This document shows, piece after piece, positions 26,718-38,639 of a DNA stretch of 64,000 bases (position 1 is its first letter; each line of letters opens with the position of its first letter). The translations under genes and the position numbers were made by a program. The notes beneath the pieces were generated by a model. That model did not search any database. It worked only from the letters and a program-made list of their open reading frames with translations, and was not told the DNA's origin. Source of the stretch: a virus (taxonomy: Duplodnaviria; Heunggongvirae; Uroviricota; Caudoviricetes). The stretch is from IMG/VR virus record IMGVR_UViG_2778261087_000003. One strand, 5' to 3'.

Positions 26718-29700
26718 ATGAACAAGCTATCTATGGGGGTGTTTCGCTGTTCAAGTGTCAGCGAAATATTGAAATACATTAGGGCAATAACATCTCACCG
26801 AGCGCCGATTAAATACGGCGTGGAAAAGGTGGAAGGCAAAAGCTATGACCGACTGCGCCGGGAGGCGAATCAGAAGGCGATAGATTTGCTTAATTCGCTG
26901 GTGGACGGCGCGACACTGACAGATGAACAGCGCCAGATCCTGGCTGGGTACACCGGTGAAGGCGGCATTGGCGGGTCCGTCTCCGAATATTACACACCAA
27001 AGCCGATCGCTGAAGGTGTCTGGGAGATCATGAAGCTCTACGGCGCGGACGTAGGTAACACTCTGGAACCATCGGCGGGCACCGGCGTTTTTAATGAGAC
27101 AAAACCGGTTGGTACGGTGATGACCGCGACTGAGATCAGCAGTGTTTCCGGTCGTATAAACCAGCTGTTACATCCGGAAGACAGCGTACAGATTTCCCCG
27201 TTCGAACAACTGGCTGTAAGCACGCCTAACGATTCATTCGACCATGTTGTGGGTAACGTTCCGTTCGGCGGTCGTGATAACACACGCAACATCGATAAGC
27301 CTTACGCAGAAGAAACGGACATGGGTTCTTACTTCATGCTCCGCATGCTGGACAAGATAAAGCCAGGCGGATTCATGTGCGTGATTGTGCCGCCGTCCAT
27401 TGTTTCAGGTTCAAACATGAAGCGGTTACGCCTGCGCCTATCACGGAAAGCTGAATTTCTTGGTGCCCACCGCTTGCCTACCGGTACTTTTGATGCTAAC
27501 GGGACCAGTACGGTCGTAGATGTGGTGCTGATGCGCAAACATCCGGCAGAGATGGCTGAGAAAATCCCCCTGGTGGATGAAGGCACTCTTGAATCGGCAA
27601 ATGTGCTTTGGCCAACGTTTATTTCTGGCAAGTGGTTCGAAAAGGATGGCCGCCGGTTTGTTCATGGCACCCAGGAGAAGGGATTCCAGGGGCGTATTGA
27701 GGTTCGTGCCGACGGGCAGATTGATAACCAGGCTCTTAAAGCGAAGCTGATTCATCGTTTCGAAAGCCGTATCGACTGGTCTTTGCTTGATATGGCTGAA
27801 CCGTCACCGACCGCAGACGTTGTTGATGAAGGGGAAATGCGCCTGATTAATGGCGTATGGCAAAAATATGCTGGTGGTCGCTGGATTGAAGCTGATTCTG
27901 GTAAGGAGCTTAAGATTGATGCTGCCAGTTATGGCGCGGATAGCTGGGAGGCTCTTCAGCGTAACCTGACTACCACTGAAGGCCGTCTCGGCATGACATT
28001 TACCCAGATGGCAAATGTCCGCGATAAGTACACCACATCAATCAGCGACGATATGGTGCAGCTGGTGGACTGGATTAACAGCCAGCCTGAAAAATACCGT
28101 GAACGCTTGTATCGCGGGGCGATGATTGGCCGGATGTTAATTGAATATCAGGACATGAAGGCCGCCGGGCATAGTGCTGAACAAATCGAACAGCAGCGCC
28201 TTTCTCTGGTATCCCGTTTGCAAGCAGAGATTGACCGTTTTGGTAACCCCGGTCGCGGTCCGATAGCGAAATTATCGGGAAGCGGTGCGCGCGCCTGGTT
28301 TGCTTTCCGTGGTGCAATTAAGCTGGATGGCACTATTTCTGACGAGCTGACAGGAAAGCTGGTTACGCATGATTCCAGCGCCAGTTATGACTCCACCAGC
28401 TATCAGGACACCCTGCGTTATCTCTATAGCGATCTTACCCGCGATCCAATCCAGCTCGATGATTTCCGCCTTGCGTTTACCGGCGGACTGCCAGCCAGTG
28501 ATGAAGAGTTGCTTAATTTATTGGCCAGCACCCCTGGTATTGCGGTTTCACCGTATGGCGGGATTGTTCCGTTCGCCCGCGCCACCAGCGGCGACATTAA
28601 CGAGATAGTGGCTCCAAAACAGGAATTCCTTTCCACACTCCCCGACGGTCCAGTAAAGAACAACGTCCTTAATCAGTTGGCAGCGATCGAAGAGAAGCGC
28701 ATCAAGACGCCAGCAGAGAATATCCGCTTTAAGCTCAATAGCCGTTGGTTCGACCGTTCCGTCATTCTGGAGTTTTTGCAGGAAAACGGCTATCCGGATC
28801 TGCGCTATGTGCAGTCAGTGCAGCTGGAAGGCGACGAAATGGTTTCTGACACCTATCACGGTGGTGATGGTCTGTTCGTCGGGCACCGATACGGTGTCGT
28901 CCAGCGCAAGGATAAAGAAACAGGTGAGATCCGCTACGAGTGGGACCGTAAATCAGGTGAAAACGCGACCGGGTTCCCGGCACAGCTGGAAAAGTATCTC
29001 AATGGTGCGCGTATCGGTGGCAAAGATAGCGCGACGGCGAACGGCTATCGTGAGCAGATGGCACTGCTTGAGGACCAGTTCAATAAGTGGATCAAGACGC
29101 ACGATCGCTACGATGAGCTGGTTGCCAAATACAACGATGTTTTCAATAGCAATATTCCGTATGAACACTCTGGTGATCCGCTTGGGTTGAAGGGATTAAG
29201 CGGTAAGCGTCAGCCATTTGATTACCAGAATAGCGAGGTGCGCCGACTGTCCGAAGATGGGCGCGGCATCCTGGGCTTCGGCACCGGGCTGGGTAAAACC
29301 ACGACCGCGCTGGCACTTGAGGCGTTCAACTATGAGAACGGTCGCTCCACCCGTACTGCGTATGTAGTGCCTAAATCAGTGCTGGAAAACTGGTATTACG
29401 AAGCAAAAGAATTCCTGAGTGAAGAGGCATTCAGTAACTACCTGTTCGTCGGTCTTGATGTGCTGATGGATGGCGATCAGATTCGCCAGGTGCCGGTGCT
29501 CGATGAGAACGGTAAACCTGTTCTTGGTGCTGATGGCACTCCAGTTATGCGCGATGCTCTTAAGCTGGCAGATGAAGCCACTATCACGGCGCGGATGAAT
29601 GCGATCCCGCACTCAAATTACCGTGCAGTCGTGTTTACCAAAGAACAATACGCCCGCATTCCGCTACGTGATGACACCGTAGATGAGCATGCACAAGACA

Positions 29701-32700
29701 TGCTTTATGACTTCGTTGCTGCCGGACGTGTGGCCAGCGCAATGGATTCCGATTCCCATCGCAAAGAGGCGGCGCGTCGCCGGGTATTGTCGGAGTATTC
29801 AGATACCGGTACCGAAAAAGCAGAGAAGTATCCGTACTTTGAGGATATGGGCTTCGACAGCGTGATCGCCGACGAAGGCCACAACTACCGCAATAGCTAT
29901 AAAAATGGTCGCGAAGCGTCACAACTGGCCTATCTGCCCACCAGCGCGGTGGCGCAATCGGCGCGGGATATGGCAATTAAAAACGCGTACCTGATGAAAA
30001 AGAATGGCGGGCGCGGACCGGTTCTCCTGACTGCAACGCCAGTCGTTAACACCCCGATCGATGCATACAACATGCTTTCTCATGTTCTGCCGAAGGAATA
30101 CTGGCAGAAGATGGGGATCTACGGTCCTGATGACTTCGTTAAATTCTTCGGCAAGACCAGGCTGGAAACGGTACAGAAAATCAGCGGTGAAGTTGAAGAA
30201 AAAATGGCGCTGGTGGGCTTTGAAAACCTTGATGCGCTGCGCGGCATATTCCATCGCTGGACAACGCTTAAAACGGCGGAAGACGTTAAGGATACCGTGG
30301 AGATCCCGGAACTGGACGAACACCAGCAGGATGCACCACTTACTGAAGAACAACTGGCGGCGTATGAAGAATTACGTCAGCAGGCGGAAGCGGCAGCAAA
30401 AGCCAACAATGGCGTAACGACCTCGGTCAATGAAGACGGCGTGATTGAGCACGAGAAAGCCCGTCCGATCTTCTCAATAATCAGGGATATGGACCGCGTA
30501 TGTACTGACATGGACCTGTACTATCGCCGGATCACCTATCGTTTCCTGCCGGAGTACGCCGATGCGGTGCAGCAGCTGGCGGACAGTTTGCCTAAACAAG
30601 CCACCAGCGAAGACGACGACAGTGATGATTCAATCACGCAGCAATCGCAATACTCCCTGATAGATAAGGGCGAGTTTATTCAGTTGCAGGTTCCGGAAGC
30701 GTTCGAGCAGGAAGTGAATAAGCGCCTGGCCAGGTTTGGCATTGACGAACAGACCGTAACTCACCCCGTTACACCCAAATACGCGAAGCTGATCGCCACG
30801 CTGAAGGAGTTTTTCCCGGAAGGTAAGCAAATCATCTTCACGGACGAAAAAACGCAGCACCAGAAGCTCAAGCGCATTATCTGCAATGCTCTTAACCTTG
30901 AACCTTCAAAGGTGGGGATCCTGAATGCTCAGACGGTTGCCGAGGCAGGTAAAACCGGTAAGAAACTGAAAGCGGTTAAACCGCCGAAAGAGTTACCGGA
31001 TGAACCAACAGATGCACAGATAGCGAAATACAACGAGCAAATGGCTCTGTATGACGCCTATATCGCGCAGCAAAATGAAATGTCGTTGGGCGGTCTGGAA
31101 AAGATTGCAGCCGACTTCCAGGAGGGCCGGACTCCGATCATCATCTGCAACAAAAAGGCAGAGGTGGGTATCAACCTGCATCGAGGAACGACTGACATCC
31201 ATCATCTGACGTTGCCGTGGACTCCAGCCAGTATCGCACAACGTAACGGTCGCGGTGCCCGAGTTGGCTCCAACCGTGCAAGCGTTCGCGTTCACTACTA
31301 CTGCGGCAAGGGTTCTTTCGATGAATACCGACTGAAGACGCTGAAGCGTAAAGCAGGCTGGATCTCCGATATCCTCCGTTCAGATAAGTCAGAAATGGAG
31401 AACGCCGACGCCAACGATATGATCGAAATGCAGATGTATACCGCTAAGGATGATGGCGAACGTCTGGCAATGATGCAGGTTCAAATGGATAAGGCGAAAG
31501 CCGCGCAACGCGCTCGCCAGAAAGAACAGGCTACTATCGACCTTCAGAACTACATCAAGGCGCAGCACGCAGCTGGCGAGGATGTGGAGGTACTTACCGC
31601 TGAATTAGAGCGAAGCAAAGCGGAACTTGAAAAGACCACCGCCGAGGTAGCTAAATTCAAACAGGCGGTAATGGCCAAAGCAGCTGATAACGCAGACTGG
31701 AAAGCCCGCTGGGGTAGCGTCCATCACACAGACCGTACGTTGTTAGCACAGTATCGCGCGTCGTTGAAAAGCGCCATTCAGCGCAAGGCTAATATCTCTC
31801 AAGCCATCTCCCGCTATGAGAAATTATTGAACCGTACTCAGAAGGCCGCGACGGATATCAAACGCCTGCGCCCGCTGGTGGAGGATGCAATAAATAAAGG
31901 CATTCTGGATGTTGATCCTGACCTGGTTAACCATGCGAGTGAGTTCCTTGTTATCGGCGATCGCTCATGGCGTGTAGGCCAATACTACGATTGTGCCGGT
32001 GATATCGTTCGCATTAAGTCGCTGGACTTCGACAGCCAGCGCGCAGACGTGGAGATTATCTTTACCTTCAAAGGTACCAAATCGGGTAACTGGGATGTGA
32101 AGACGCTGGATAAACAGGTTGATGTAACTCCCGATGAAGATGCTGTTATGCAGAAAATCAGTGGCGGCGTCTCCATCGCCGGGATTAACGACATCATTTC
32201 CTGTGACGATTTCTACCGTTTCCAGCAGCGCGGCATGATCAAAATCACTGACTCATACGGCGTTCAGACTACAGAGTCAGGCTATAGCATTGATTTTGTT
32301 GGTACCTATACGGACCCACTGAAGCATGCGGTTTACCCGGATCGCCGTGACGGCGCGCTGAAGTCGTCAATTGCAAAATGGGTGCTTGGTATGATGTCGG
32401 AAGGGAATAACCGCCAGATCCGTTCGGCAGAAACATTCCTGGTTGAACTGTTTGGCTCCAATTATGGCGATGTAATCGCGTCATACGGAGATACGCTATC
32501 CCCTGAAGCAATTCAGGAGAAAATAGCGGATGCGATCGCCAGAATGCCGGAAAAAACAAGCCAGGGGGCTACTCGTAACGGGGATTCTGAACTTGAAGTC
32601 ACCAATGCCATTTTCGGTACCAATGAGTTCCGGGCGTCAGATTATGAGATCACCACAGCACAGTTTGGCACCATTGGCATTTACAGTAATAAAGACGAGA

Positions 32701-33485
32701 TCAAGCAGGCAATGGACGCAGCAAGTGCGCGCATTGCAGCAGAACGGAAAGCCAATCTGAATCATGCAGTCGCCGCGCTGACTCAATCGTGGGTAACAGC
32801 AATCAGGGAGGCCGCCACCACAGGGAAAATCACACCTGCAATAGCGGATGTCGTAAACGACGGCTCTAAATTTATGGATGCCTATCAAATGGATGCGGTG
32901 AAGTTGCCATCAGCCTATGGTCAACTCAGCTATCGCATGACCTACAACCTGGTATCAATGTTTTCCGACCTTGCCATCCTTGGGCTGGTGGATCTTAACG
33001 AGGTTACGCCGGAATTGCTCAGCATGCGCAAGAATCATGTGGAGATATTGCAGAGAATTAACACGGTTCTTGCCGGGCGCACCGATGAAGAGAAACAGGC
33101 CGACGCTGATCGGATAAACCTGGCCCTTGGCAACATCACAGAGGAAGAGATTGCCGCCAGAAACGAGAAACAAGAAGAGTTATCATCAATACAGGGTGAT
33201 GCCACCAGCATAGCTCAGTCTCTTGGTCTGAATTATCGCGTATCCACCGCCGACCTGAAGATGATGTACGCACCAAAATTCGCCGCTGGCGAGGTATTTG
33301 GGCTTCAGGAAGCCTCAGGCATGAAAGGCGTTCTTTTCCGTGCGAAAGACGCAATCAAGGCGAAATTCGGCGCTCGCTGGCTGCCAGCGAAGGCGAAGAA
33401 CAGCGATTTCCCGGGTAACTGGTGGATTATCGAGACAAAACACAACGTGGCGGACGTTCTGGCCGTCATCCAACAATACGCATAA
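26718..33485 (+). CDS. darB: DarB antirestriction protein (methyltransferase plus SF2 helicase domains)
   Basis: 2255-aa ORF; MTase-like N-terminus, helicase Walker A GFGTGLGKT and DEGH box. Confidence 0.9.
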   Translation: MNKLSMGVFRCSSVSEILKYIRAITSHRAPIKYGVEKVEGKSYDRLRREANQKAIDLLNSLVDGATLTDEQRQILAGYTGEGGIGGSVSEYYTPKPIAEGVWEIMKLYGADVGNTLEPSAGTGVFNETKPVGTVMTATEISSVSGRINQLLHPEDSVQISPFEQLAVSTPNDSFDHVVGNVPFGGRDNTRNIDKPYAEETDMGSYFMLRMLDKIKPGGFMCVIVPPSIVSGSNMKRLRLRLSRKAEFLGAHRLPTGTFDANGTSTVVDVVLMRKHPAEMAEKIPLVDEGTLESANVLWPTFISGKWFEKDGRRFVHGTQEKGFQGRIEVRADGQIDNQALKAKLIHRFESRIDWSLLDMAEPSPTADVVDEGEMRLINGVWQKYAGGRWIEADSGKELKIDAASYGADSWEALQRNLTTTEGRLGMTFTQMANVRDKYTTSISDDMVQLVDWINSQPEKYRERLYRGAMIGRMLIEYQDMKAAGHSAEQIEQQRLSLVSRLQAEIDRFGNPGRGPIAKLSGSGARAWFAFRGAIKLDGTISDELTGKLVTHDSSASYDSTSYQDTLRYLYSDLTRDPIQLDDFRLAFTGGLPASDEELLNLLASTPGIAVSPYGGIVPFARATSGDINEIVAPKQEFLSTLPDGPVKNNVLNQLAAIEEKRIKTPAENIRFKLNSRWFDRSVILEFLQENGYPDLRYVQSVQLEGDEMVSDTYHGGDGLFVGHRYGVVQRKDKETGEIRYEWDRKSGENATGFPAQLEKYLNGARIGGKDSATANGYREQMALLEDQFNKWIKTHDRYDELVAKYNDVFNSNIPYEHSGDPLGLKGLSGKRQPFDYQNSEVRRLSEDGRGILGFGTGLGKTTTALALEAFNYENGRSTRTAYVVPKSVLENWYYEAKEFLSEEAFSNYLFVGLDVLMDGDQIRQVPVLDENGKPVLGADGTPVMRDALKLADEATITARMNAIPHSNYRAVVFTKEQYARIPLRDDTVDEHAQDMLYDFVAAGRVASAMDSDSHRKEAARRRVLSEYSDTGTEKAEKYPYFEDMGFDSVIADEGHNYRNSYKNGREASQLAYLPTSAVAQSARDMAIKNAYLMKKNGGRGPVLLTATPVVNTPIDAYNMLSHVLPKEYWQKMGIYGPDDFVKFFGKTRLETVQKISGEVEEKMALVGFENLDALRGIFHRWTTLKTAEDVKDTVEIPELDEHQQDAPLTEEQLAAYEELRQQAEAAAKANNGVTTSVNEDGVIEHEKARPIFSIIRDMDRVCTDMDLYYRRITYRFLPEYADAVQQLADSLPKQATSEDDDSDDSITQQSQYSLIDKGEFIQLQVPEAFEQEVNKRLARFGIDEQTVTHPVTPKYAKLIATLKEFFPEGKQIIFTDEKTQHQKLKRIICNALNLEPSKVGILNAQTVAEAGKTGKKLKAVKPPKELPDEPTDAQIAKYNEQMALYDAYIAQQNEMSLGGLEKIAADFQEGRTPIIICNKKAEVGINLHRGTTDIHHLTLPWTPASIAQRNGRGARVGSNRASVRVHYYCGKGSFDEYRLKTLKRKAGWISDILRSDKSEMENADANDMIEMQMYTAKDDGERLAMMQVQMDKAKAAQRARQKEQATIDLQNYIKAQHAAGEDVEVLTAELERSKAELEKTTAEVAKFKQAVMAKAADNADWKARWGSVHHTDRTLLAQYRASLKSAIQRKANISQAISRYEKLLNRTQKAATDIKRLRPLVEDAINKGILDVDPDLVNHASEFLVIGDRSWRVGQYYDCAGDIVRIKSLDFDSQRADVEIIFTFKGTKSGNWDVKTLDKQVDVTPDEDAVMQKISGGVSIAGINDIISCDDFYRFQQRGMIKITDSYGVQTTESGYSIDFVGTYTDPLKHAVYPDRRDGALKSSIAKWVLGMMSEGNNRQIRSAETFLVELFGSNYGDVIASYGDTLSPEAIQEKIADAIARMPEKTSQGATRNGDSELEVTNAIFGTNEFRASDYEITTAQFGTIGIYSNKDEIKQAMDAASARIAAERKANLNHAVAALTQSWVTAIREAATTGKITPAIADVVNDGSKFMDAYQMDAVKLPSAYGQLSYRMTYNLVSMFSDLAILGLVDLNEVTPELLSMRKNHVEILQRINTVLAGRTDEEKQADADRINLALGNITEEEIAARNEKQEELSSIQGDATSIAQSLGLNYRVSTADLKMMYAPKFAAGEVFGLQEASGMKGVLFRAKDAIKAKFGARWLPAKAKNSDFPGNWWIIETKHNVADVLAVIQQYA

Positions 33486-33518: not shown

Positions 33519-33959
33519 ATGGCCACACTATCTGATACAATAAAACCGAATAAAACATATCTTGAGGCGGTACTCCGTACAGCGTTGTTAGGAAAGACAG
33601 AAGACGAATACGTTGATTTCTTCCTGTCAGGGCTACGCGGGCGATTACTGAAAAATCCCCGCCTGTACCGCAGCTACGGCCCATACTGGCCGGAAATTAA
33701 AAAATTATTACTGGAGCGCGGTTATGGTAATTTCGGTCGTCTCGTTGACCGTGACGTTCGCAAAATTTACCGTTATGACCGCCCGGCGCTGACGCTCATA
33801 GCCGCGACGCTCTACAGCCAGGAGCGTTTTGATAATGGTCAGATATACTCAGCCTGGCATTTACTGCCTGTGCCTGAAGAGGTTGACGACCAGGACTATG
33901 AGTTTGAGTCTTACGATTTGGAAGTTGAAGCCTTAGCACAGGCTGGAGAGAAAACTTGA
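33519..33959 (+). CDS. ulx: Ulx
   Basis: 146-aa ORF between darB and lxc; synteny. Confidence 0.55.
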   Translation: MATLSDTIKPNKTYLEAVLRTALLGKTEDEYVDFFLSGLRGRLLKNPRLYRSYGPYWPEIKKLLLERGYGNFGRLVDRDVRKIYRYDRPALTLIAATLYSQERFDNGQIYSAWHLLPVPEEVDDQDYEFESYDLEVEALAQAGEKT

Positions 33960-34204
33960 AAAAGCGATACTACACAGTAAAGCATGGGACGCTACGAGCA
34001 TTACAAGAGTTTGCTGACAAGCATAACGTTGAGGTGCGCAGGGAAGGGGGAAGTAAAGCTCTGCGCATGTACCGCCCGGACGGGAAATGGCGGACGGTCG
34101 TCGATTTCAAAACTAACAGCGTTCCCCAGGGCGTCCGTGACCGGGCATTCGAGGAATGGGAGCAGATCATCATAGATAACGCATTGCTCCTGAATGCTGA
34201 TTAA
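33956..34204 (+). CDS. lxc: Lxc/Bof, modulator of C1 repression
   Basis: 82 aa, start overlaps ulx stop; sequence and length as I recall for P1 Lxc. Confidence 0.7.
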   Translation: MKKRYYTVKHGTLRALQEFADKHNVEVRREGGSKALRMYRPDGKWRTVVDFKTNSVPQGVRDRAFEEWEQIIIDNALLLNAD

Positions 34205-34208
34205 GAAC

Positions 34209-34237
34209 TCTCCGGCCTAGGGAGATTAGGCCGGAGA
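34209..34237. terminator. 10-bp-stem hairpin between convergent lxc and the SIR2-like gene
   Basis: tctccggcct-agggagatt-aggccggaga; AT-rich flanks. Confidence 0.4.
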
Positions 34238-34245
34238 TAAATATA

Positions 34246-35550
34246 CTATATAAACTTAGATATAATATCGTGAATCTGTTGTAGCGGGATTTCTTCCATC
34301 TTACTCTTAATAAGAGAGCGGTTAGATGCTGTCAGTGAAGGCCATTTTGTTTTCCAGGCTAGATATGCTCGCCATGAGTAGCCTGTTTCGTAAGGTTTAT
34401 TCATATAAGTCATTGAGTGTTCAACCGCATGTATGTATTTTTTCTCAAAGTTGGTTCCTTTTACTTCAAATAAACTACCGAAATAAATAAGCCATTTTGC
34501 CAGGTGTTCATACTGCTCCCATGCGCCAGACTCTTTAGTAAGATCTATTTTTTTATCTATTATATCACAAAAAACATTTAATACCTTTTCATCATTCCAG
34601 CTATATCCAGATGATGAAATGGAGGAAATGATATGATAAAAAGAATCCTCTAACTTCAAGAACTCTATTTTATACTCTCTTCCGTTTTTTATTACCGATT
34701 TGATTGAGTGCCTCAATTTGTCTTTTATTTTTTTTGCTTCTGGAATTTTCTTGTTAAGTTTTCTAAAGAAATCAGACACCTCTGTTTTATCTATAACCCT
34801 AATCCCAAAGCAGGAAAAATAGTAATCTTTAATAGGTTGCAATAGTTTCCCTCGGGAAATAAGGAAAATATTGGAGGACATTACGTTGTCCCGTGAAAAT
34901 ACCTTATATTCATTTATAATCGCCTTGAGGTTCGCGTCACTTAGAGAATAGCCAAGAATAACAATAGTGTTTTCATGTAGAACTGTGCTTAGTTTATTTG
35001 AAAAGTAAGAATTACCATTTATAAATCTGAAATAATCCTCGCTAGTAACAACCATATCTGATGGGGAGTCTATAGAGCCGTGAACATGGTAGACTTTAAC
35101 CTCACAATTATATTTTGGAATTGGCAGGCCGGGGGTGATTGTACACGTTCGATTCTCTCCAGCCAGTTTTTCTGCTAACTTGTCATAATTTGTCGTAATT
35201 ACTTTAAATGTGTTTTCTTTGAAAAAGTCTTGAATATATTCAATTGATGGATCAAGTTCGATTGAGGCTATGATTTTCTCAATCTCCTGGTAAATATTTT
35301 TCCCCGAAAGTATAAATTTTAGTGCAATAACCTGAGCTGCCTCTTCAAGGCTAAGGTCTTTTGCTTTTCCATCAGGAAATAATTCCTCTTTGAGTGAGTC
35401 ACCATCCTTCAATAAACCGCACAGTTGCTCCAATAAAGATTGCCAACTTGGGGCTTTATCATCAGAAACAGCCTTTGAAAATCCAGTGCCTGTAAGAAAG
35501 CACAGCCTATGTGTAGCTGCTGCATAGGCAATTTCTATATACTCGCTCAT
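34246..35550 (-). CDS. SIR2-like protein (SIR2_2 family), candidate NAD-dependent anti-phage defence protein
   Basis: 434 aa; N-terminal CFLTGTGFSKAV, TTNYD (N121/D123) and VHGS (H157) motifs typical of defence-type SIR2 domains; markedly AT-rich gene; GGAG SD 7 nt upstream of ATG. Confidence 0.75.
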   Translation of the reverse strand: MSEYIEIAYAAATHRLCFLTGTGFSKAVSDDKAPSWQSLLEQLCGLLKDGDSLKEELFPDGKAKDLSLEEAAQVIALKFILSGKNIYQEIEKIIASIELDPSIEYIQDFFKENTFKVITTNYDKLAEKLAGENRTCTITPGLPIPKYNCEVKVYHVHGSIDSPSDMVVTSEDYFRFINGNSYFSNKLSTVLHENTIVILGYSLSDANLKAIINEYKVFSRDNVMSSNIFLISRGKLLQPIKDYYFSCFGIRVIDKTEVSDFFRKLNKKIPEAKKIKDKLRHSIKSVIKNGREYKIEFLKLEDSFYHIISSISSSGYSWNDEKVLNVFCDIIDKKIDLTKESGAWEQYEHLAKWLIYFGSLFEVKGTNFEKKYIHAVEHSMTYMNKPYETGYSWRAYLAWKTKWPSLTASNRSLIKSKMEEIPLQQIHDIISKFI

Positions 35551-35606
35551 TACTTACTCCATTTACTTATAGTTCTACGGAGAAGTATACCCTAATGCAT
35601 TGACGT

Positions 35607-36248
35607 TTATAGATAATTTCCTTTTCCTGTTAATACTCCCTTAGGCACCTGTTTTTGTGCCAGCGTTTGGGTTCCGCGAATTATGTTAATCAGAGGGCTT
35701 AGTAACGATGGTTCCTGGCGTGCCTCAACTTCTCCAGCCATTGCCCTGATGTAGTCTGCGCTGGCAACGTTGTTGTATTCCGTCGCAAAGCAACATAGTA
35801 ACGTCAGAACATGCTCTGTCGTTATTTCGCTCCAGTTGATGTTGAAAAATTCATCGCCTTTTTTGTCGTGTTCGGAATCGAAGATGCTTTGGTGGAGGAT
35901 GTATTTGCCGGATTCTTTGCGCGGTAACTTGATCGCTTTCTGGCGTTCCAGCTCCTTGTAAATCTGCATTGCCTCAATTAGTACCGGCCTGCCGTTCATG
36001 AAGGGATCGCGCAACCTTACACGCTGGCCAACTCGTCCAGTAATAAAGCTGTTTTCCTCTTCCACCAGCACGATAAAACCCTTTTCCTCTTTTTCTCGCA
36101 ATTCGCGCAGCAGCTGGAGTTCCATATCGCGGCGGCGTTCAGGGTAGCTGGTCCGCTCAGCCATTATCAGCTCGTTATTGATCCATGCAGCAGTCATTGA
36201 CGCCGGTTTGCCGACGCTCATCGAAACAACGCATATTTTCTTATCCAT
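35607..36248 (-). CDS. mat: Mat-like protein (particle maturation)
   Basis: Start taken at internal ATG (MDKKICVV...) with G-rich SD; the longer ORF reaches 36359; synteny next to ref. Confidence 0.5.
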   Translation of the reverse strand: MDKKICVVSMSVGKPASMTAAWINNELIMAERTSYPERRRDMELQLLRELREKEEKGFIVLVEEENSFITGRVGQRVRLRDPFMNGRPVLIEAMQIYKELERQKAIKLPRKESGKYILHQSIFDSEHDKKGDEFFNINWSEITTEHVLTLLCCFATEYNNVASADYIRAMAGEVEARQEPSLLSPLINIIRGTQTLAQKQVPKGVLTGKGNYL

Positions 36249-36437
36249 AGCGCCCCCTACAAAAAAGAAAAGCCACCAGCGGCGGCTTAGCAATACAACT
36301 GAAGGTAGCGCCCGGTACTCAGACTGTGCCGTCCATGGAATATTTGAAAAGGGATCCATCCGTACCGGGCGTGTGATGATTCTGACTGAAGTAACTTGTC
36401 AGTTGTCAATCATTTATCATTAAAAATAATATATTTA

Positions 36438-36998
36438 TTAGTGCATGATGTTTGCCATCTCATAGGCGTCAGCCAGCAACTCCATCTCTGACTTGTTCAG
36501 CAAGGTGAATTCTTTCTTGCCTCCAACCACACCATCGGCATGGACAGGGACCAGCCAGGGGTATTTTTCTCTTACTTCAGCCGGTGCTGCATGCTGGTGG
36601 TGCCATCTACAAAGGGGCAATTGCTTTTTGTGACAACCCGGCGCGGTACGACCGGAGATATGGTGCAGAGATACCTCTTCAGATATTACTCCATGCATAT
36701 AGCAGGCAATGCAGGGGAGAGCGCCAAGAGCATTGGCGATGCTCCGTTCCTCCGCTGTCGGTGTTCGCCCCTTCAAGCCACGAGATTTTATCTTTACCGC
36801 ACTTTTCCGCGTTTTGCTGGCTGGTGGGCGCTCTTTCTGTTTAGCGATACGGCGGTCGATAGAATCCCGCATTTTCTGATATTGCGATTCTCGCCAGGCG
36901 GGGTCAGCCAACTTTTCCCGTTGCCGAGCGATAGCTCGTTCTCTGGCTGCCTTCTGCCACTTGCGGCACTGTTCAATTTTTTGTTCGTTTGTTTTCAT
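36438..36998 (-). CDS. ref: Ref, recombination enhancement function (HNH nuclease)
   Basis: 186 aa, MKTNEQKIEQCRKWQKAARERA...; HNH-type Cys/His motifs. Confidence 0.9.
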   Translation of the reverse strand: MKTNEQKIEQCRKWQKAARERAIARQREKLADPAWRESQYQKMRDSIDRRIAKQKERPPASKTRKSAVKIKSRGLKGRTPTAEERSIANALGALPCIACYMHGVISEEVSLHHISGRTAPGCHKKQLPLCRWHHQHAAPAEVREKYPWLVPVHADGVVGGKKEFTLLNKSEMELLADAYEMANIMH

Positions 36999-37607: not shown

Positions 37608-38639
37608 CTAATCGCCATCTTCCAGCAGGCGCACCATTGCCCCCGTTTCACTATCCAGGTTACGAATGTAGTTCATGACAATATTTACGTTGGTCCAGCC
37701 ACCAGCTTGCATGATCTCCGGTATTGAAACTCCGGCGCGGGCCATATCTCGCGCGGCACCGACACGGGCACTATGTCCAGACCAGGCCAGGTATCGCTGA
37801 CCAGAGTCATCTTTTGCCCCGTAAATCAATCGGTGAGTTGCTTCAAAAATCCCTTCCAGGGCGCGAGTTGATAGCTGGCTGGTGGATGATGGCGCGGCAA
37901 CACCATTTTTTCTGACGCGGCAAAACAGGTAGTTATTCGGATCATCAGCTACACCAGAGACAGAAATCCATCGCTCAACCAGTTTAGTTACCCCCAGGCT
38001 AAGTGCCTTCTCTACACCAGCGGTGCTAACCAGCGTTTTCGTTCTGCCAATATGGATTAACATCCTCCCACCGTCAGTACGTGAGATATCTTTAACCCTG
38101 ATCCTGGAAATTTCGGCTATACGTAACAGGGTGTTATAAGCAATCCCCAGAAATGCCAGATTACGTATATCCTGGCAGCGATCGCTATTTTCCATGAGTG
38201 AACGAACCTGGTCGAAATCAGTGCGTTCGAACGCCAGCGCCTGTTTTGCACGCTCACCGGCATCAACGTTTTCTTTTCGGATCCGTCGCATGACCAGTGA
38301 AACAGCATTGCTGTCACTTGGTCGTGGCAGACCGGACCGACGATGAAGCATATTTAGCTGGCCCAAATGTTGCTGGATAGTTTTTACTGCCAGACCGCGC
38401 GCCTGAAGATATAGAAGATAATCGCGAACATCTTCAGGTTCTGCGGGAAACCATTTCCGGTTATTCAACTTGCACCATGCCGCCCACGACCGGCAAACGG
38501 ACAGAAGCATTTTCCAGGTATGCTCAGAAAACGCCTGGCGATCCCTGAACATGTCCATCAGGTTCTTGCGAACCTCATCACTCGTTGCATCGACCGGTAA
38601 TGCAGGCAAATTTTGGTGTACGGTCAGTAAATTGGACAT
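37608..38639 (-). CDS. cre: Cre tyrosine recombinase
   Basis: 343 aa, MSNLLTVHQNLPALPVDATSDEVRKNLMDMF...; essentially the P1 Cre sequence with a few substitutions. Confidence 0.98.
   Translation of the reverse strand: MSNLLTVHQNLPALPVDATSDEVRKNLMDMFRDRQAFSEHTWKMLLSVCRSWAAWCKLNNRKWFPAEPEDVRDYLLYLQARGLAVKTIQQHLGQLNMLHRRSGLPRPSDSNAVSLVMRRIRKENVDAGERAKQALAFERTDFDQVRSLMENSDRCQDIRNLAFLGIAYNTLLRIAEISRIRVKDISRTDGGRMLIHIGRTKTLVSTAGVEKALSLGVTKLVERWISVSGVADDPNNYLFCRVRKNGVAAPSSTSQLSTRALEGIFEATHRLIYGAKDDSGQRYLAWSGHSARVGAARDMARAGVSIPEIMQAGGWTNVNIVMNYIRNLDSETGAMVRLLEDGD

What the first reader, a model, noticed from the sequence alone, without database searches (positions are those of the whole stretch)
34205..35606. 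Single-gene SIR2-like cargo occupying the P1 res-mod position: candidate NAD-dependent anti-phage defence
Between the conserved lxc and mat genes, where P1 carries its type III restriction-modification genes, this element has one 434-aa minus-strand ORF and no res or mod homologue. The protein has the hallmarks of defence-type SIR2 domains (N-terminal CFLTGTGFSKAV, TTNYD with N121/D123, VHGS with H157) followed by an uncharacterised ~200-aa helical C-terminal region. The gene is far more AT-rich than the flanking backbone, has its own SD and a TATACT-like -10, and is bracketed by hairpins, all consistent with a horizontally acquired cassette in a known variable locus. No TIR, HerA, Argonaute or other partner gene is adjacent, so it does not fit the multi-gene SIR2 systems I know (Thoeris, SIR2-HerA, pAgo-SIR2) and is much shorter than the DSR proteins. 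It may be a compact, self-contained effector/sensor.
Basis: partly seen in the sequence, partly recalled or inferred. Interest (0 to 1): 0.9.

Follow-up and report, generated by a model that had tools for sequence, protein, structure and literature searches.

The report
Stand-alone SIR2 defence gene in P1
A P1-like phage-plasmid carries, in the slot where phage P1 keeps its restriction enzyme, a single uncharacterised 434-residue protein that joins an NAD-cleaving SIR2 domain to a small helical domain found nowhere else; it is most likely a one-protein anti-phage system, a new variant of a known kind rather than a new principle.

Summary
A 434-aa minus-strand ORF (34246-35550) fills the segment between the lxc and mat stop codons, where P1 carries EcoP1I mod/res. 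It is the lowest-GC kilobase of the window. Residues 1-255 are a SIR2_2 domain with the NAD loop, N121 and H157 intact. Its closest solved relatives are DSR2, ThsA and KomC.

Residues 256-434 form a HEAT-like alpha-solenoid. Among 1.84 billion representative proteins this domain is found only behind a SIR2_2 domain.

No neighbouring gene is conserved across 52 species, so it is a single-gene unit. Relatives sit in defence islands, a P4-satellite hotspot and a prophage end. The same P1 slot holds CapRelSJ46, a validated one-protein defence, in phage SJ46.

About 18% of P1-like plasmids in PLSDB carry one of two alleles (59% identical) here.

It fails every membership test for Thoeris, DSR1/2, SIR2-HerA, Lamassu and SPARSA, and I found no experimental work on this family.

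Most likely it is a phage-triggered NADase causing abortive infection. The 5' hairpin and the own-promoter claims are not supported.

Verdict: a real, plausible and testable candidate, a new variant of a known kind, of moderate interest (0.5, not 0.9).

The parts
34205..35606 (.). Cargo segment of the lxc-mat slot: everything between the stop codons of the convergent lxc and mat genes.
   Evidence: BLASTN against RCS47 (empty slot), SJ46, P1 and a second allele puts the breakpoints at 34204/34205 and 35606/35607. GC is 0.31-0.37 against 0.50 in the flanks.
34246..35550 (-). Gene for the 434-aa SIR2 + alpha-solenoid protein; the stop codon is 34246-34248.
   Evidence: ORF list. Full-length homologues at 53-60% identity. 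PHROG 7567 matches over its full length, E = 7.6e-291. dN/dS is 0.12 against a 92%-identical variant.
34786..35550 (-). SIR2 (SIRim-type) NADase domain, residues 1-255. It includes the NAD-binding loop F18-S25, N121 (35188-35190) and H157 (35080-35082).
   Evidence: Pfam SIR2_2, E = 1.6e-23. A family profile hits DSR2 at 4e-11 over residues 12-257, ThsA at 1e-10 and KomC at 2e-8. Foldseek's best hit is DSR2, E = 5e-12. AlphaFold2 pLDDT is 84.
34249..34785 (-). Family-specific C-terminal domain, residues 256-434: a short HEAT-like alpha-solenoid and the presumed sensor or regulatory module.
35551..35606 (-). mat-SIR2 intergenic region with the Shine-Dalgarno GGAG (35557-35560) and a TATACT -10-like hexamer (35584-35589).
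   Evidence: Sequence read. The region is 55/56 identical in the second allele although the genes are only 72% identical. The scan found no canonical promoter.
34209..34237 (.). Hairpin with an 11-12 bp G+C-rich stem between the convergent lxc and SIR2 genes. It has no U-tract.
   Evidence: -20.8 and -22.2 kcal/mol on the two strands, z = -4.9 and -5.0. Each cargo type brings a different hairpin to this position.
33956..34204 (+). lxc (C1 modulator): backbone gene forming the left border of the slot.
   Evidence: 96-98% identical to P1, RCS47 and SJ46 lxc.
35607..36359 (-). mat (maturation control): backbone gene forming the right border. It runs in the same direction as the SIR2 gene and lies immediately upstream of it. 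The alternative annotated start gives 35607-36248.
   Evidence: Its 3' end is only 83-92% identical to other P1-like elements.

Best explanation
The gene encodes a self-contained, one-protein anti-phage system carried as swappable cargo by a P1-like phage-plasmid.

Proposed mechanism:
1. In the lysogen the protein is made at a low level and kept inactive.
2. Infection by a competing phage produces a trigger, most likely a phage protein. The trigger is recognised by the family-specific C-terminal alpha-solenoid, or it relieves that domain's inhibition of the enzyme.
3. The N-terminal SIR2 domain then hydrolyses NAD+ to ADP-ribose and nicotinamide, using N121 and H157.
4. NAD+ is depleted and the infected cell stops supporting phage replication (abortive infection). 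This protects the clonal population and the resident plasmid.

Shown here:
- domain identity and an intact catalytic motif;
- single-gene status;
- a fixed two-domain architecture;
- placement in mobile and defence contexts;
- purifying selection.

Inferred:
- NADase activity;
- trigger sensing by the C-terminal domain;
- abortive infection;
- expression in the lysogen.
For: SIR2 domain:
- SIR2_2, E = 1.6e-23.
- The closest defence models are all SIR2 parts of known systems (PDC-S25, ThsA, LmuA, Dsr2).
- A family profile aligns residues 12-257 with DSR2. N121 falls on DSR2 N133 and H157 on H171, the residue mutated in the catalytically dead DSR2 structures.
- DSR2 is a one-protein SIR2 NADase with a helical sensor region that binds the phage tail tube (PDB titles; PMC10973363).
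- Bacterial SIR2_2-type ('SIRim') proteins form the clade that holds all known antiphage SIR2s. Defence genes are 12-fold enriched near them (bioRxiv 10.1101/2024.09.18.613514).

C-terminal domain:
- Confidently modelled all-helical solenoid.
- Found only fused behind SIR2_2.

Genomic context:
- No neighbouring gene family occurs in more than 6 of 52 species loci, and none at a fixed position.
- Contexts of relatives: prophage end next to the integrase, P4-like satellite hotspot, defence islands with HNH, DUF4145, HerA-like and Gabija-like genes.
- Immediate neighbours include retron reverse transcriptases, dGTPase, TIR, Mrr and ResIII proteins.
- The same slot carries EcoP1I in P1, CapRelSJ46 in SJ46 (= PDB 7ZTB; validated in PMC9712102), and PDC-S31- and PDC-S34-like genes in other plasmids.

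Selection and distribution:
- dN/dS = 0.12.
- Patchy distribution across Proteobacteria, Actinobacteria, Firmicutes and Melainabacteria (Caenarcaniphilales).
Against: - There is no experimental evidence for this family. PHROG 7567 is labelled 'unknown function' and no paper cites the protein accession.
- A different single-gene SIR2 from the P4 hotspot (pFR88) was cloned by Rousset et al. and is not among their validated systems. One-gene SIR2 cargo therefore does not always score in a standard phage panel.
- No convincing own promoter was found. The gene could be transcribed mainly from the C1-controlled and late mat promoter, which would be odd timing for a lysogen-protecting system.
- Faster amino-acid change in the C-terminal domain shows in one allele pair (13 non-synonymous vs 3 synonymous, Fisher p = 0.0095) but not in another (p = 0.5).
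Confidence: 0.6

Rival explanations
1. It is only the effector half of a split system. The SIR2 enzyme would be switched on by a small-molecule signal or a partner protein encoded elsewhere: on the P1 backbone, or by a host TIR, cyclase or SMC-type sensor.
For: Its nearest sequence models are effector subunits of multi-gene systems: ThsA at 7e-18, and LmuA at 2e-13 with in-register N-termini and a 433-position model. 2 of 136 nearest neighbours in other species are ThsB-like TIR proteins. One locus has an SMC-like gene pair 1 kb away.
Against: No partner is conserved in 52 loci. The family sits in unrelated backbones (P1, P4-like satellite, lambdoid prophage end, chromosomal islands). The C-terminal domain is all-helical, not a SLOG, Macro or STALD ligand-binding fold. 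The ThsA and LmuA matches cover the SIR2 part only.
Confidence: 0.12
2. It is a defence or exclusion factor, but not through bulk NAD+ depletion. The SIR2 domain would use NAD+ to ADP-ribosylate or deacylate a specific phage or host target. PGAP's current name, 'NAD-dependent protein deacylase', implies something of this sort.
For: SIR2 folds support several NAD-consuming chemistries (general knowledge of the superfamily). RefSeq now annotates the gene as a deacylase. The conserved aromatic face of the C-terminal domain could be a substrate-docking surface.
Against: There is no hit to canonical sirtuin PF02146 at E <= 0.1, and no Zn-binding Cys4 module: only C17 and C44 are invariant. All close solved relatives (DSR2, ThsA, KomC) are described as NADases.
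Confidence: 0.13
3. It serves the phage-plasmid itself rather than defence. It could be a late or derepression-expressed function co-transcribed with mat that remodels host NAD metabolism during P1 lytic growth, or a plasmid-addiction toxin.
For: It is co-oriented with mat, 56 nt downstream, with no terminator between them and no clear promoter. In P1, mat has a C1 operator and a late promoter. The mat-SIR2 junction is 55/56 identical between the two alleles. The type III restriction-modification system that P1 carries here can itself act as an addiction module (general knowledge).
Against: Homologues occur without mat or any P1 gene, in chromosomal defence islands and P4-like satellites. There is no antitoxin-like partner. 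RCS47 and other P1-like elements do without any cargo in the slot.
Confidence: 0.08
4. It is inert hitch-hiking cargo that no longer functions.
For: None specific. Such cargo genes are frequently lost, and empty slots exist.
Against: The ORF is intact at the family's standard length. All invariant residues are kept. dN/dS is 0.12. Near-identical copies occur in about 66 plasmids from humans, livestock, birds and water.
Confidence: 0.03

Closest known systems
DSR2 (defence-associated sirtuin 2, Bacillus subtilis 29R)
   Same: One-protein system. N-terminal SIR2 NADase with the same GxG loop, catalytic Asn (N133 / N121) and His (H171 / H157). It is the best sequence-profile and Foldseek match. 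The SIR2 domain is followed by an all-helical repeat region that, in DSR2, senses a phage protein.
Thoeris ThsA (SIR2-SLOG)
   Same: Similar length (about 476 aa), an N-terminal SIR2 NADase, and the second-best PDB and PADLOC match.
   Different: ThsA has an alpha/beta SLOG (or Macro) domain that binds gcADPR, and it needs an adjacent TIR gene, thsB. Here the C-terminal domain is all-alpha and no thsB is adjacent.
CapRelSJ46 (fused toxin-antitoxin of phage SJ46)
   Same: It occupies the very same lxc-mat slot of a P1-like element, on the same strand relative to mat. It is a single protein that combines an enzyme with a C-terminal sensor and is a validated abortive-infection defence (PMC9712102).
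   Different: The fold and chemistry are unrelated: CapRelSJ46 is a RelA/SpoT-type toxSAS described as tRNA-modifying (bioRxiv 10.64898/2026.04.06.716658), not a SIR2 NADase.
'sole-Sir2' (bioRxiv 10.1101/2024.12.27.630466)
   Same: A single protein of about 440 aa with a SIR2 domain. It is reported to convert NAD+ to ADPR in vitro, and a homologue protects E. coli against T2 and T4.
   Different: It is described as having the SIR2 domain at the C-terminus with a novel N-terminal part, and as embedded in type I-C cas operons. Here SIR2 is N-terminal, and none of 78 related loci has a CRISPR array within 8 kb. No sequence is available in the held text, so identity could not be tested.
PADLOC candidate PDC-S25 and PHROG 7567
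   Same: PDC-S25 is the best PADLOC hit (5e-24). PHROG 7567 is the same family over its full length.
   Different: The PDC-S25 match covers only residues 100-253 of a 517-position model, that is, the SIR2 core. PHROG 7567 carries no functional annotation.

Membership tests
SIR2_2 / 'SIRim' immune-type SIR2 superfamily (PF13289) | Match to PF13289 above the gathering score | tested here: met
   83.8 bits against a cut-off of 24.5, residues 117-245.
SIR2_2 / 'SIRim' immune-type SIR2 superfamily (PF13289) | Catalytic Asn and His and the glycine-rich NAD loop are conserved | tested here: met
   N121, H157 and G21-x-G23 are invariant in 42 homologues and align with DSR2 N133, H171 and GAG.
Canonical sirtuin deacylases (PF02146) | Match to PF02146 and a Zn-binding Cys4 module | tested here: not met
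   No PF02146 hit at E <= 0.1. Only two invariant Cys residues, C17 and C44.
DSR2 (NF041819) / DSR1 (NF041818) | Full-length equivalog score (cut-off 1,400 bits), protein of about 1,000-1,260 aa | tested here: not met
   30.6 and 21.2 bits, SIR2 region only; the protein is 434 aa.
DSR2 (NF041819) / DSR1 (NF041818) | Single gene, with N-terminal SIR2 followed by a helical sensor region | tested here: met
Thoeris (ThsA/ThsB) | C-terminal SLOG/STALD or Macro signal-binding domain | tested here: not met
Thoeris (ThsA/ThsB) | Adjacent TIR-domain thsB gene | tested here: not met
   The window neighbours are lxc and mat. Only 2 of 136 nearest neighbours in other species match ThsB.
SIR2-HerA (Nezha) | Adjacent HerA (DUF87) ATPase gene | tested here: not met
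   None in the window. Not conserved in 52 loci. One Halomonas locus has a DUF87 gene 2.6 kb away with three genes in between.
Lamassu (LmuA-SIR2 + LmuB) | Adjacent SMC/Rad50-like lmuB gene, and an LmuA C-terminal domain | tested here: not met
   The LmuA model matches residues 20-219 only, 48 bits. No conserved SMC neighbour.
SPARSA (SIR2-APAZ + short pAgo) | APAZ domain and an adjacent short Argonaute | tested here: not met
   No such hit in Pfam or PADLOC. No Argonaute gene adjacent.
PADLOC PDC-S25 | Full-length match to the 517-528-position models | tested here: not met
   The match covers model positions 127-283 only.
'sole-Sir2' (CRISPR-supervised, preprint) | Single gene of about 440 aa with a SIR2 domain | tested here: met
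   434 aa, single gene.
'sole-Sir2' (CRISPR-supervised, preprint) | Sequence homology to the published protein; SIR2 at the C-terminus; location between cas3 and cas5c | not testable with these tools
   No sequence or accession is given in the held text. By description the domain order differs. No CRISPR arrays lie near 78 related loci.
PHROG 7567 | Full-length profile match | tested here: met
   E = 7.6e-291, residues 1-434 against profile positions 1-434; category 'unknown function'.

The most novel reading that the evidence does not exclude
This would be the smallest self-sufficient SIR2 immune receptor so far. In a 434-aa protein, a family-specific 180-aa alpha-solenoid with an invariant aromatic face (W344, Y347, W353, W393, Y396, W399, W403) would directly recognise a conserved phage protein and unleash the NADase. 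The two 59%-identical alleles that alternate in the same P1 slot would recognise different phages. That would make the lxc-mat slot of P1-like plasmids a natural exchange site for one-protein pattern-recognition receptors: CapRelSJ46, this SIR2, and DUF2971, PIN and YaaC proteins.
Probability: 0.4. Interest if true: 0.6.

Novelty: new variant of a known kind. Interest (0 to 1): 0.5.

Why it matters
P1-like phage-plasmids are common in clinical and livestock E. coli and Salmonella and often carry resistance genes. In PLSDB this SIR2 family is among the most frequent occupants of the P1 restriction-modification slot, at about 18% of plasmids that carry ulx-lxc.

If it is an active defence, it shapes which phages, including therapeutic ones, can infect these strains. 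It also helps explain how such plasmids persist.

Mechanistically it offers a very small system for studying how a SIR2 NADase is held in check and triggered: 434 aa, two domains and no partner. The two natural alleles provide a ready-made specificity comparison.

It also shows that the lxc-mat slot is a defence-cargo hotspot worth mining. YaaC plus a 169-aa protein, a DUF2971 protein and a PIN-domain protein sit there uncharacterised.

The current RefSeq name, 'NAD-dependent protein deacylase', is probably misleading.

Tried and rejected
- Conserved partner gene: rejected. All-vs-all BLAST of ORFs within +/-8 kb in 52 species found no family in more than 6 loci. The 207-aa gene upstream in Pseudoalteromonas is unrelated to mat.
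- The C-terminal domain as a known domain: no Pfam or PDB sequence hit. The OTU hit at E = 0.017-0.08 lies below the cut-off and is taken as chance.
- The C-terminal domain as a module shared with other effectors: rejected. All 94 hits among 1.84e9 representatives have the same architecture or are fragments.
- The same family as the single-gene SIR2 tested by Rousset et al. (pFR88): rejected. Similarity is 26% over 43 residues only.
- Present in deposited phage genomes: neither nucleotide nor protein search of INPHARED finds it. Only distant SIR2 cores in Streptococcus and Mycolicibacterium phages turn up. BFVD has no structural match at E <= 0.001.
- Literature: nothing for the accession, a P1 hotspot, or a 'standalone SIR2' apart from the sole-Sir2 preprint.
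- Known RNA or tRNA in the region: none.
- CRISPR association: none within 8 kb in 78 loci.
- afdb50 fold search: the library was unavailable.
- Sensor-focused positive selection: inconsistent between allele pairs, so no claim is made.
- SD-sequestering stem in the leader: z = -1.2, not significant.
Full report
**What is there**

The window is a P1-like phage-plasmid. The gene order is darB (26718-33485, +), ulx (33519-33959, +), lxc (33956-34204, +), then on the minus strand a 434-aa ORF (34246-35550), mat (35607-36359), ref (36438-36998), c8 and cre (37608-38639). In P1 itself the EcoP1I mod and res genes lie between lxc and mat.

BLASTN against four other P1-like elements places the breakpoints exactly at the lxc stop codon (34204) and the mat stop codon (35607). 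The finding's coordinates, 34205-35606, are therefore the cargo segment. The segment has GC 0.31-0.37 against about 0.50 in the flanks and is the lowest-GC kilobase of the 64-kb window.

They are invariant across 42 homologues.

Two minor claims do not hold:
- Only the 3' hairpin (34209-34237; -20.8 kcal/mol, z = -4.9) is real. The 5' 'hairpin' lies inside the ORF and is indistinguishable from shuffled sequence.
- A GGAG Shine-Dalgarno and a TATACT hexamer exist, but the promoter scan finds no sigma-70-like site upstream. The gene follows mat by 56 nt without a terminator.

**The protein**

Residues 117-245 match Pfam SIR2_2 (E = 1.6e-23). There is no hit to the canonical sirtuin family.

A profile of the family matches the following in the PDB, always through the SIR2 part:
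- DSR2, 4e-11, over residues 12-257;
- ThsA, 1e-10;
- a 278-aa SIR2 chain (9v0g), 5e-10;
- KomC, 2e-8.

N121 and H157 align with DSR2 N133 and H171. H171A is the mutant used for the catalytically dead DSR2 structures.

AlphaFold2 with 42 homologues gives pLDDT 84: a Rossmann-type SIR2 domain (1-255) followed by helices only (258-433). Foldseek's best PDB hits are DSR2 (5e-12), ThsA and KomC.

A profile of this domain was searched against 1.84 billion representative proteins. It finds 94 proteins. All are either 406-480 aa with the domain in the same place or fragments. The ten most distant full-length ones tested all carry N-terminal SIR2_2. The architecture is therefore fixed, and the C-terminal domain is not a module shared with other effectors.

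The C-terminal domain has an invariant aromatic set: W344, Y347, W353, W393, Y396, W399, W403. It is less conserved overall than the SIR2 domain: mean pairwise identity 0.55 against 0.70.

**Single gene or part of a system?**

I fetched loci from 52 species that encode full-length relatives (43-60% identity): gamma-, beta- and alpha-proteobacteria, Desulfobacter, Nocardioides and a Caenarcaniphilales MAG. I then clustered all ORFs within +/-8 kb. No neighbour family occurs in more than 6 loci, and none sits at a fixed position. This is a stand-alone gene.

The nearest neighbours are heterogeneous and include many defence-type proteins: retron reverse transcriptases, dGTPase, PDC-S66, TIR/ThsB, ResIII, Mrr_cat, NERD and type I restriction-modification genes.

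Individually inspected contexts of relatives:
- the end of an E. coli prophage next to the integrase;
- the cargo position of a P4-like satellite in Klebsiella oxytoca;
- a Halomonas island with HNH, DUF4145, HsdR-like, DUF87 and STAND-like genes;
- a Pseudomonas putida island next to Gabija-like genes.

**The slot**

The lxc-mat position is a cargo-swap site:
- RCS47: empty, 39 nt between the two stop codons.
- SJ46: a 373-aa RelA/SpoT protein identical in length and sequence to PDB 7ZTB, that is, CapRelSJ46. CapRelSJ46 is a validated one-protein defence activated by a phage capsid protein (PMC9712102).
- P1: EcoP1I.
- Other plasmids, inspected directly: a YaaC-family protein plus a 169-aa protein, a DUF2971 protein (PADLOC PDC-S31, 1.8e-16), a PIN-domain protein (PDC-S34, 1.2e-11), or a scrap of chromosome.

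In PLSDB, 699 plasmids carry ulx-lxc. Of these, 66 carry this SIR2 allele at >=90% identity. Another 58 carry a second allele in the same slot, matching only over the first ~140 nt. The second allele is 59% identical in protein and 72% in DNA. Together that is about 18%.

In an evenly spaced sample of 60 matching plasmids, SIR2 was the most frequent distinguishing annotation: 8-9 rows, against 5 each for RelA/SpoT, type III restriction-modification and YaaC. I verified that the gene lies in the slot only for the records I opened.

Allele 1 occurs in 70 of 5,426 complete E. coli genomes, with 71 of 72 copies on plasmids. The 56-nt mat-SIR2 spacer is 55/56 identical between the two alleles. The exchange breakpoint therefore lies inside the 5' end of the gene.

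The gene is under purifying selection: dN/dS = 0.12 against a 92%-identical variant. A 98%-identical variant shows a cluster of amino-acid changes at residues 320-341 of the C-terminal domain (13 non-synonymous vs 3 synonymous; Fisher p = 0.0095). The more distant pair shows no such contrast (p = 0.5), so I make no claim of positive selection.

**How it most likely works**

The best-supported reading is a one-protein, phage-triggered NADase, with DSR2 as the closest working analogue. The protein would be held inactive. A phage product would be sensed through, or would relieve inhibition by, the C-terminal solenoid. The SIR2 domain would then hydrolyse NAD+, and infection would abort.

Shown here:
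- domain identity and intact catalytic residues;
- single-gene status;
- a fixed architecture;
- a mobile, defence-type context;
- a slot shared with two validated defence systems;
- purifying selection.

Inferred:
- NADase activity;
- the sensing role of the C-terminal domain;
- abortive infection;
- expression in the lysogen.

Rivals, with my confidence in each:
- an effector that needs an unlinked signal or partner (0.12);
- another NAD-dependent chemistry on a specific target (0.13);
- a function for P1's own lytic cycle or for plasmid addiction, suggested only by the possible co-transcription with mat (0.08);
- inert cargo (0.03).

**Comparison with what is known**

The protein belongs to the SIR2_2 / 'SIRim' superfamily. 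It fails the defining features of every named SIR2 system:
- DSR1 and DSR2: 21-31 bits against a 1,400-bit cut-off, and less than half their length.
- Thoeris: no SLOG or Macro domain and no thsB.
- SIR2-HerA: no HerA gene.
- Lamassu: no lmuB gene, and the LmuA model matches the SIR2 part only.
- SPARSA: no APAZ domain and no Argonaute.
- PDC-S25: core match only.

It is the full-length family PHROG 7567, annotated 'unknown function'. RefSeq calls it 'SIR2 family protein' or 'NAD-dependent protein deacylase'.

Rousset et al. listed single-gene 'SIR2_2' cargo in P4 hotspots and cloned one (pFR88). That protein belongs to a different family (26% identity over 43 residues) and is not among their validated systems.

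A 2024 preprint describes 'sole-Sir2', a single SIR2 protein of about 440 aa with in vitro NADase activity and a homologue active against T2 and T4. It is described with a C-terminal SIR2 domain and a CRISPR-embedded location, and no sequence is held. I could therefore not test identity. I found no paper on this family or on the P1 slot as a hotspot.

**Verdict**

It is not categorically new, because one-protein SIR2 NADase defences are an established kind. This is a distinct, compact variant with its own sensor-like domain. As far as I could find it is untested, and it is notably common in P1-like plasmids.

Interest is 0.5. It is a good, cheap experimental target and a pointer to an unmined defence hotspot, but it would not surprise a specialist.

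Noticed in passing
window 34205-35606 and loci L017, L018, L019, L098-L101: The lxc-mat slot of P1-like plasmids is a hotspot with very diverse cargo: empty, EcoP1I, CapRelSJ46, two SIR2 alleles, YaaC family + 169-aa protein, DUF2971 (PDC-S31-like), PIN-domain (PDC-S34-like), two hypothetical genes in a 'del res del mod' P1 isolate, and a chromosomal scrap (DUF1449, glgS). Several of these are uncharacterised candidates. Each cargo brings its own hairpin just after lxc.
   Followed up: partly
window 35551-35606 vs L016 6945-7000: The 56-nt mat-SIR2 spacer is 55/56 identical between two SIR2 alleles whose coding DNA is only 72% identical. Allele exchange therefore seems to break inside the 5' end of the gene. 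The spacer contains an imperfect inverted repeat (TACTTCTCC ... GGAGTAAGTA) that could pair with the Shine-Dalgarno sequence, but its folding energy is not significant (z = -1.2).
   Followed up: partly
window 34588-34593 region (residues 320-341 of the protein); L103: A 98%-identical variant from a Galapagos seawater E. coli plasmid differs by a cluster of charge-changing substitutions in one C-terminal helix (D320N, E321K, K322N, D329N, D336E, E340K, S341P). This could be a recombination patch or a sensor surface under selection.
   Followed up: partly
window-wide: 22922, 26772, 37098, 37574, 39135, 39218, 39682, 43955, 55946, 58038, 58087, 61711: There are twelve matches to the P1 C1-repressor operator consensus ATTGCTCTAATAAATTT (up to 3 mismatches; 0.26 expected by chance). 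A more degenerate copy (CATGCACTAATAAATAT, 4 mismatches) lies just upstream of mat at about 36437-36453, at the position of P1's Omat. This bears on whether the SIR2 gene is under C1 control through read-through.
   Followed up: partly
window 34000-35000: The cumulative GC skew of the window peaks here, at the convergence point of the plus-strand (darB-ulx-lxc) and minus-strand (SIR2-mat-ref-cre) transcription units.
   Followed up: no
L010 8335-12278 (Paracidovorax avenae): About 1 kb downstream of the SIR2 homologue lies a pair of genes: a 1,135-aa protein without Pfam hits and a 189-aa AAA_23/SMC_N fragment. This may be a separate SMC-type defence system. It is not conserved in other loci.
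   Followed up: no
H93, NZ_CP028125.1 (E. coli O26 RM10386 plasmid): This plasmid has the nearest ulx-lxc sequence to the window (99.9%). It carries the SIR2 gene plus an extra insertion of about 3.8 kb, with a recombinase-family gene, inside the otherwise collinear 12-kb region.
   Followed up: no
RefSeq annotation of the gene (e.g. NZ_CP033848.1 29500-30804): PGAP has renamed the product from 'SIR2 family protein' to 'SIR2 family NAD-dependent protein deacylase'. The domain is of the immune SIR2_2 type, without the sirtuin Zn module, so the deacylase label is probably wrong.
   Followed up: partly
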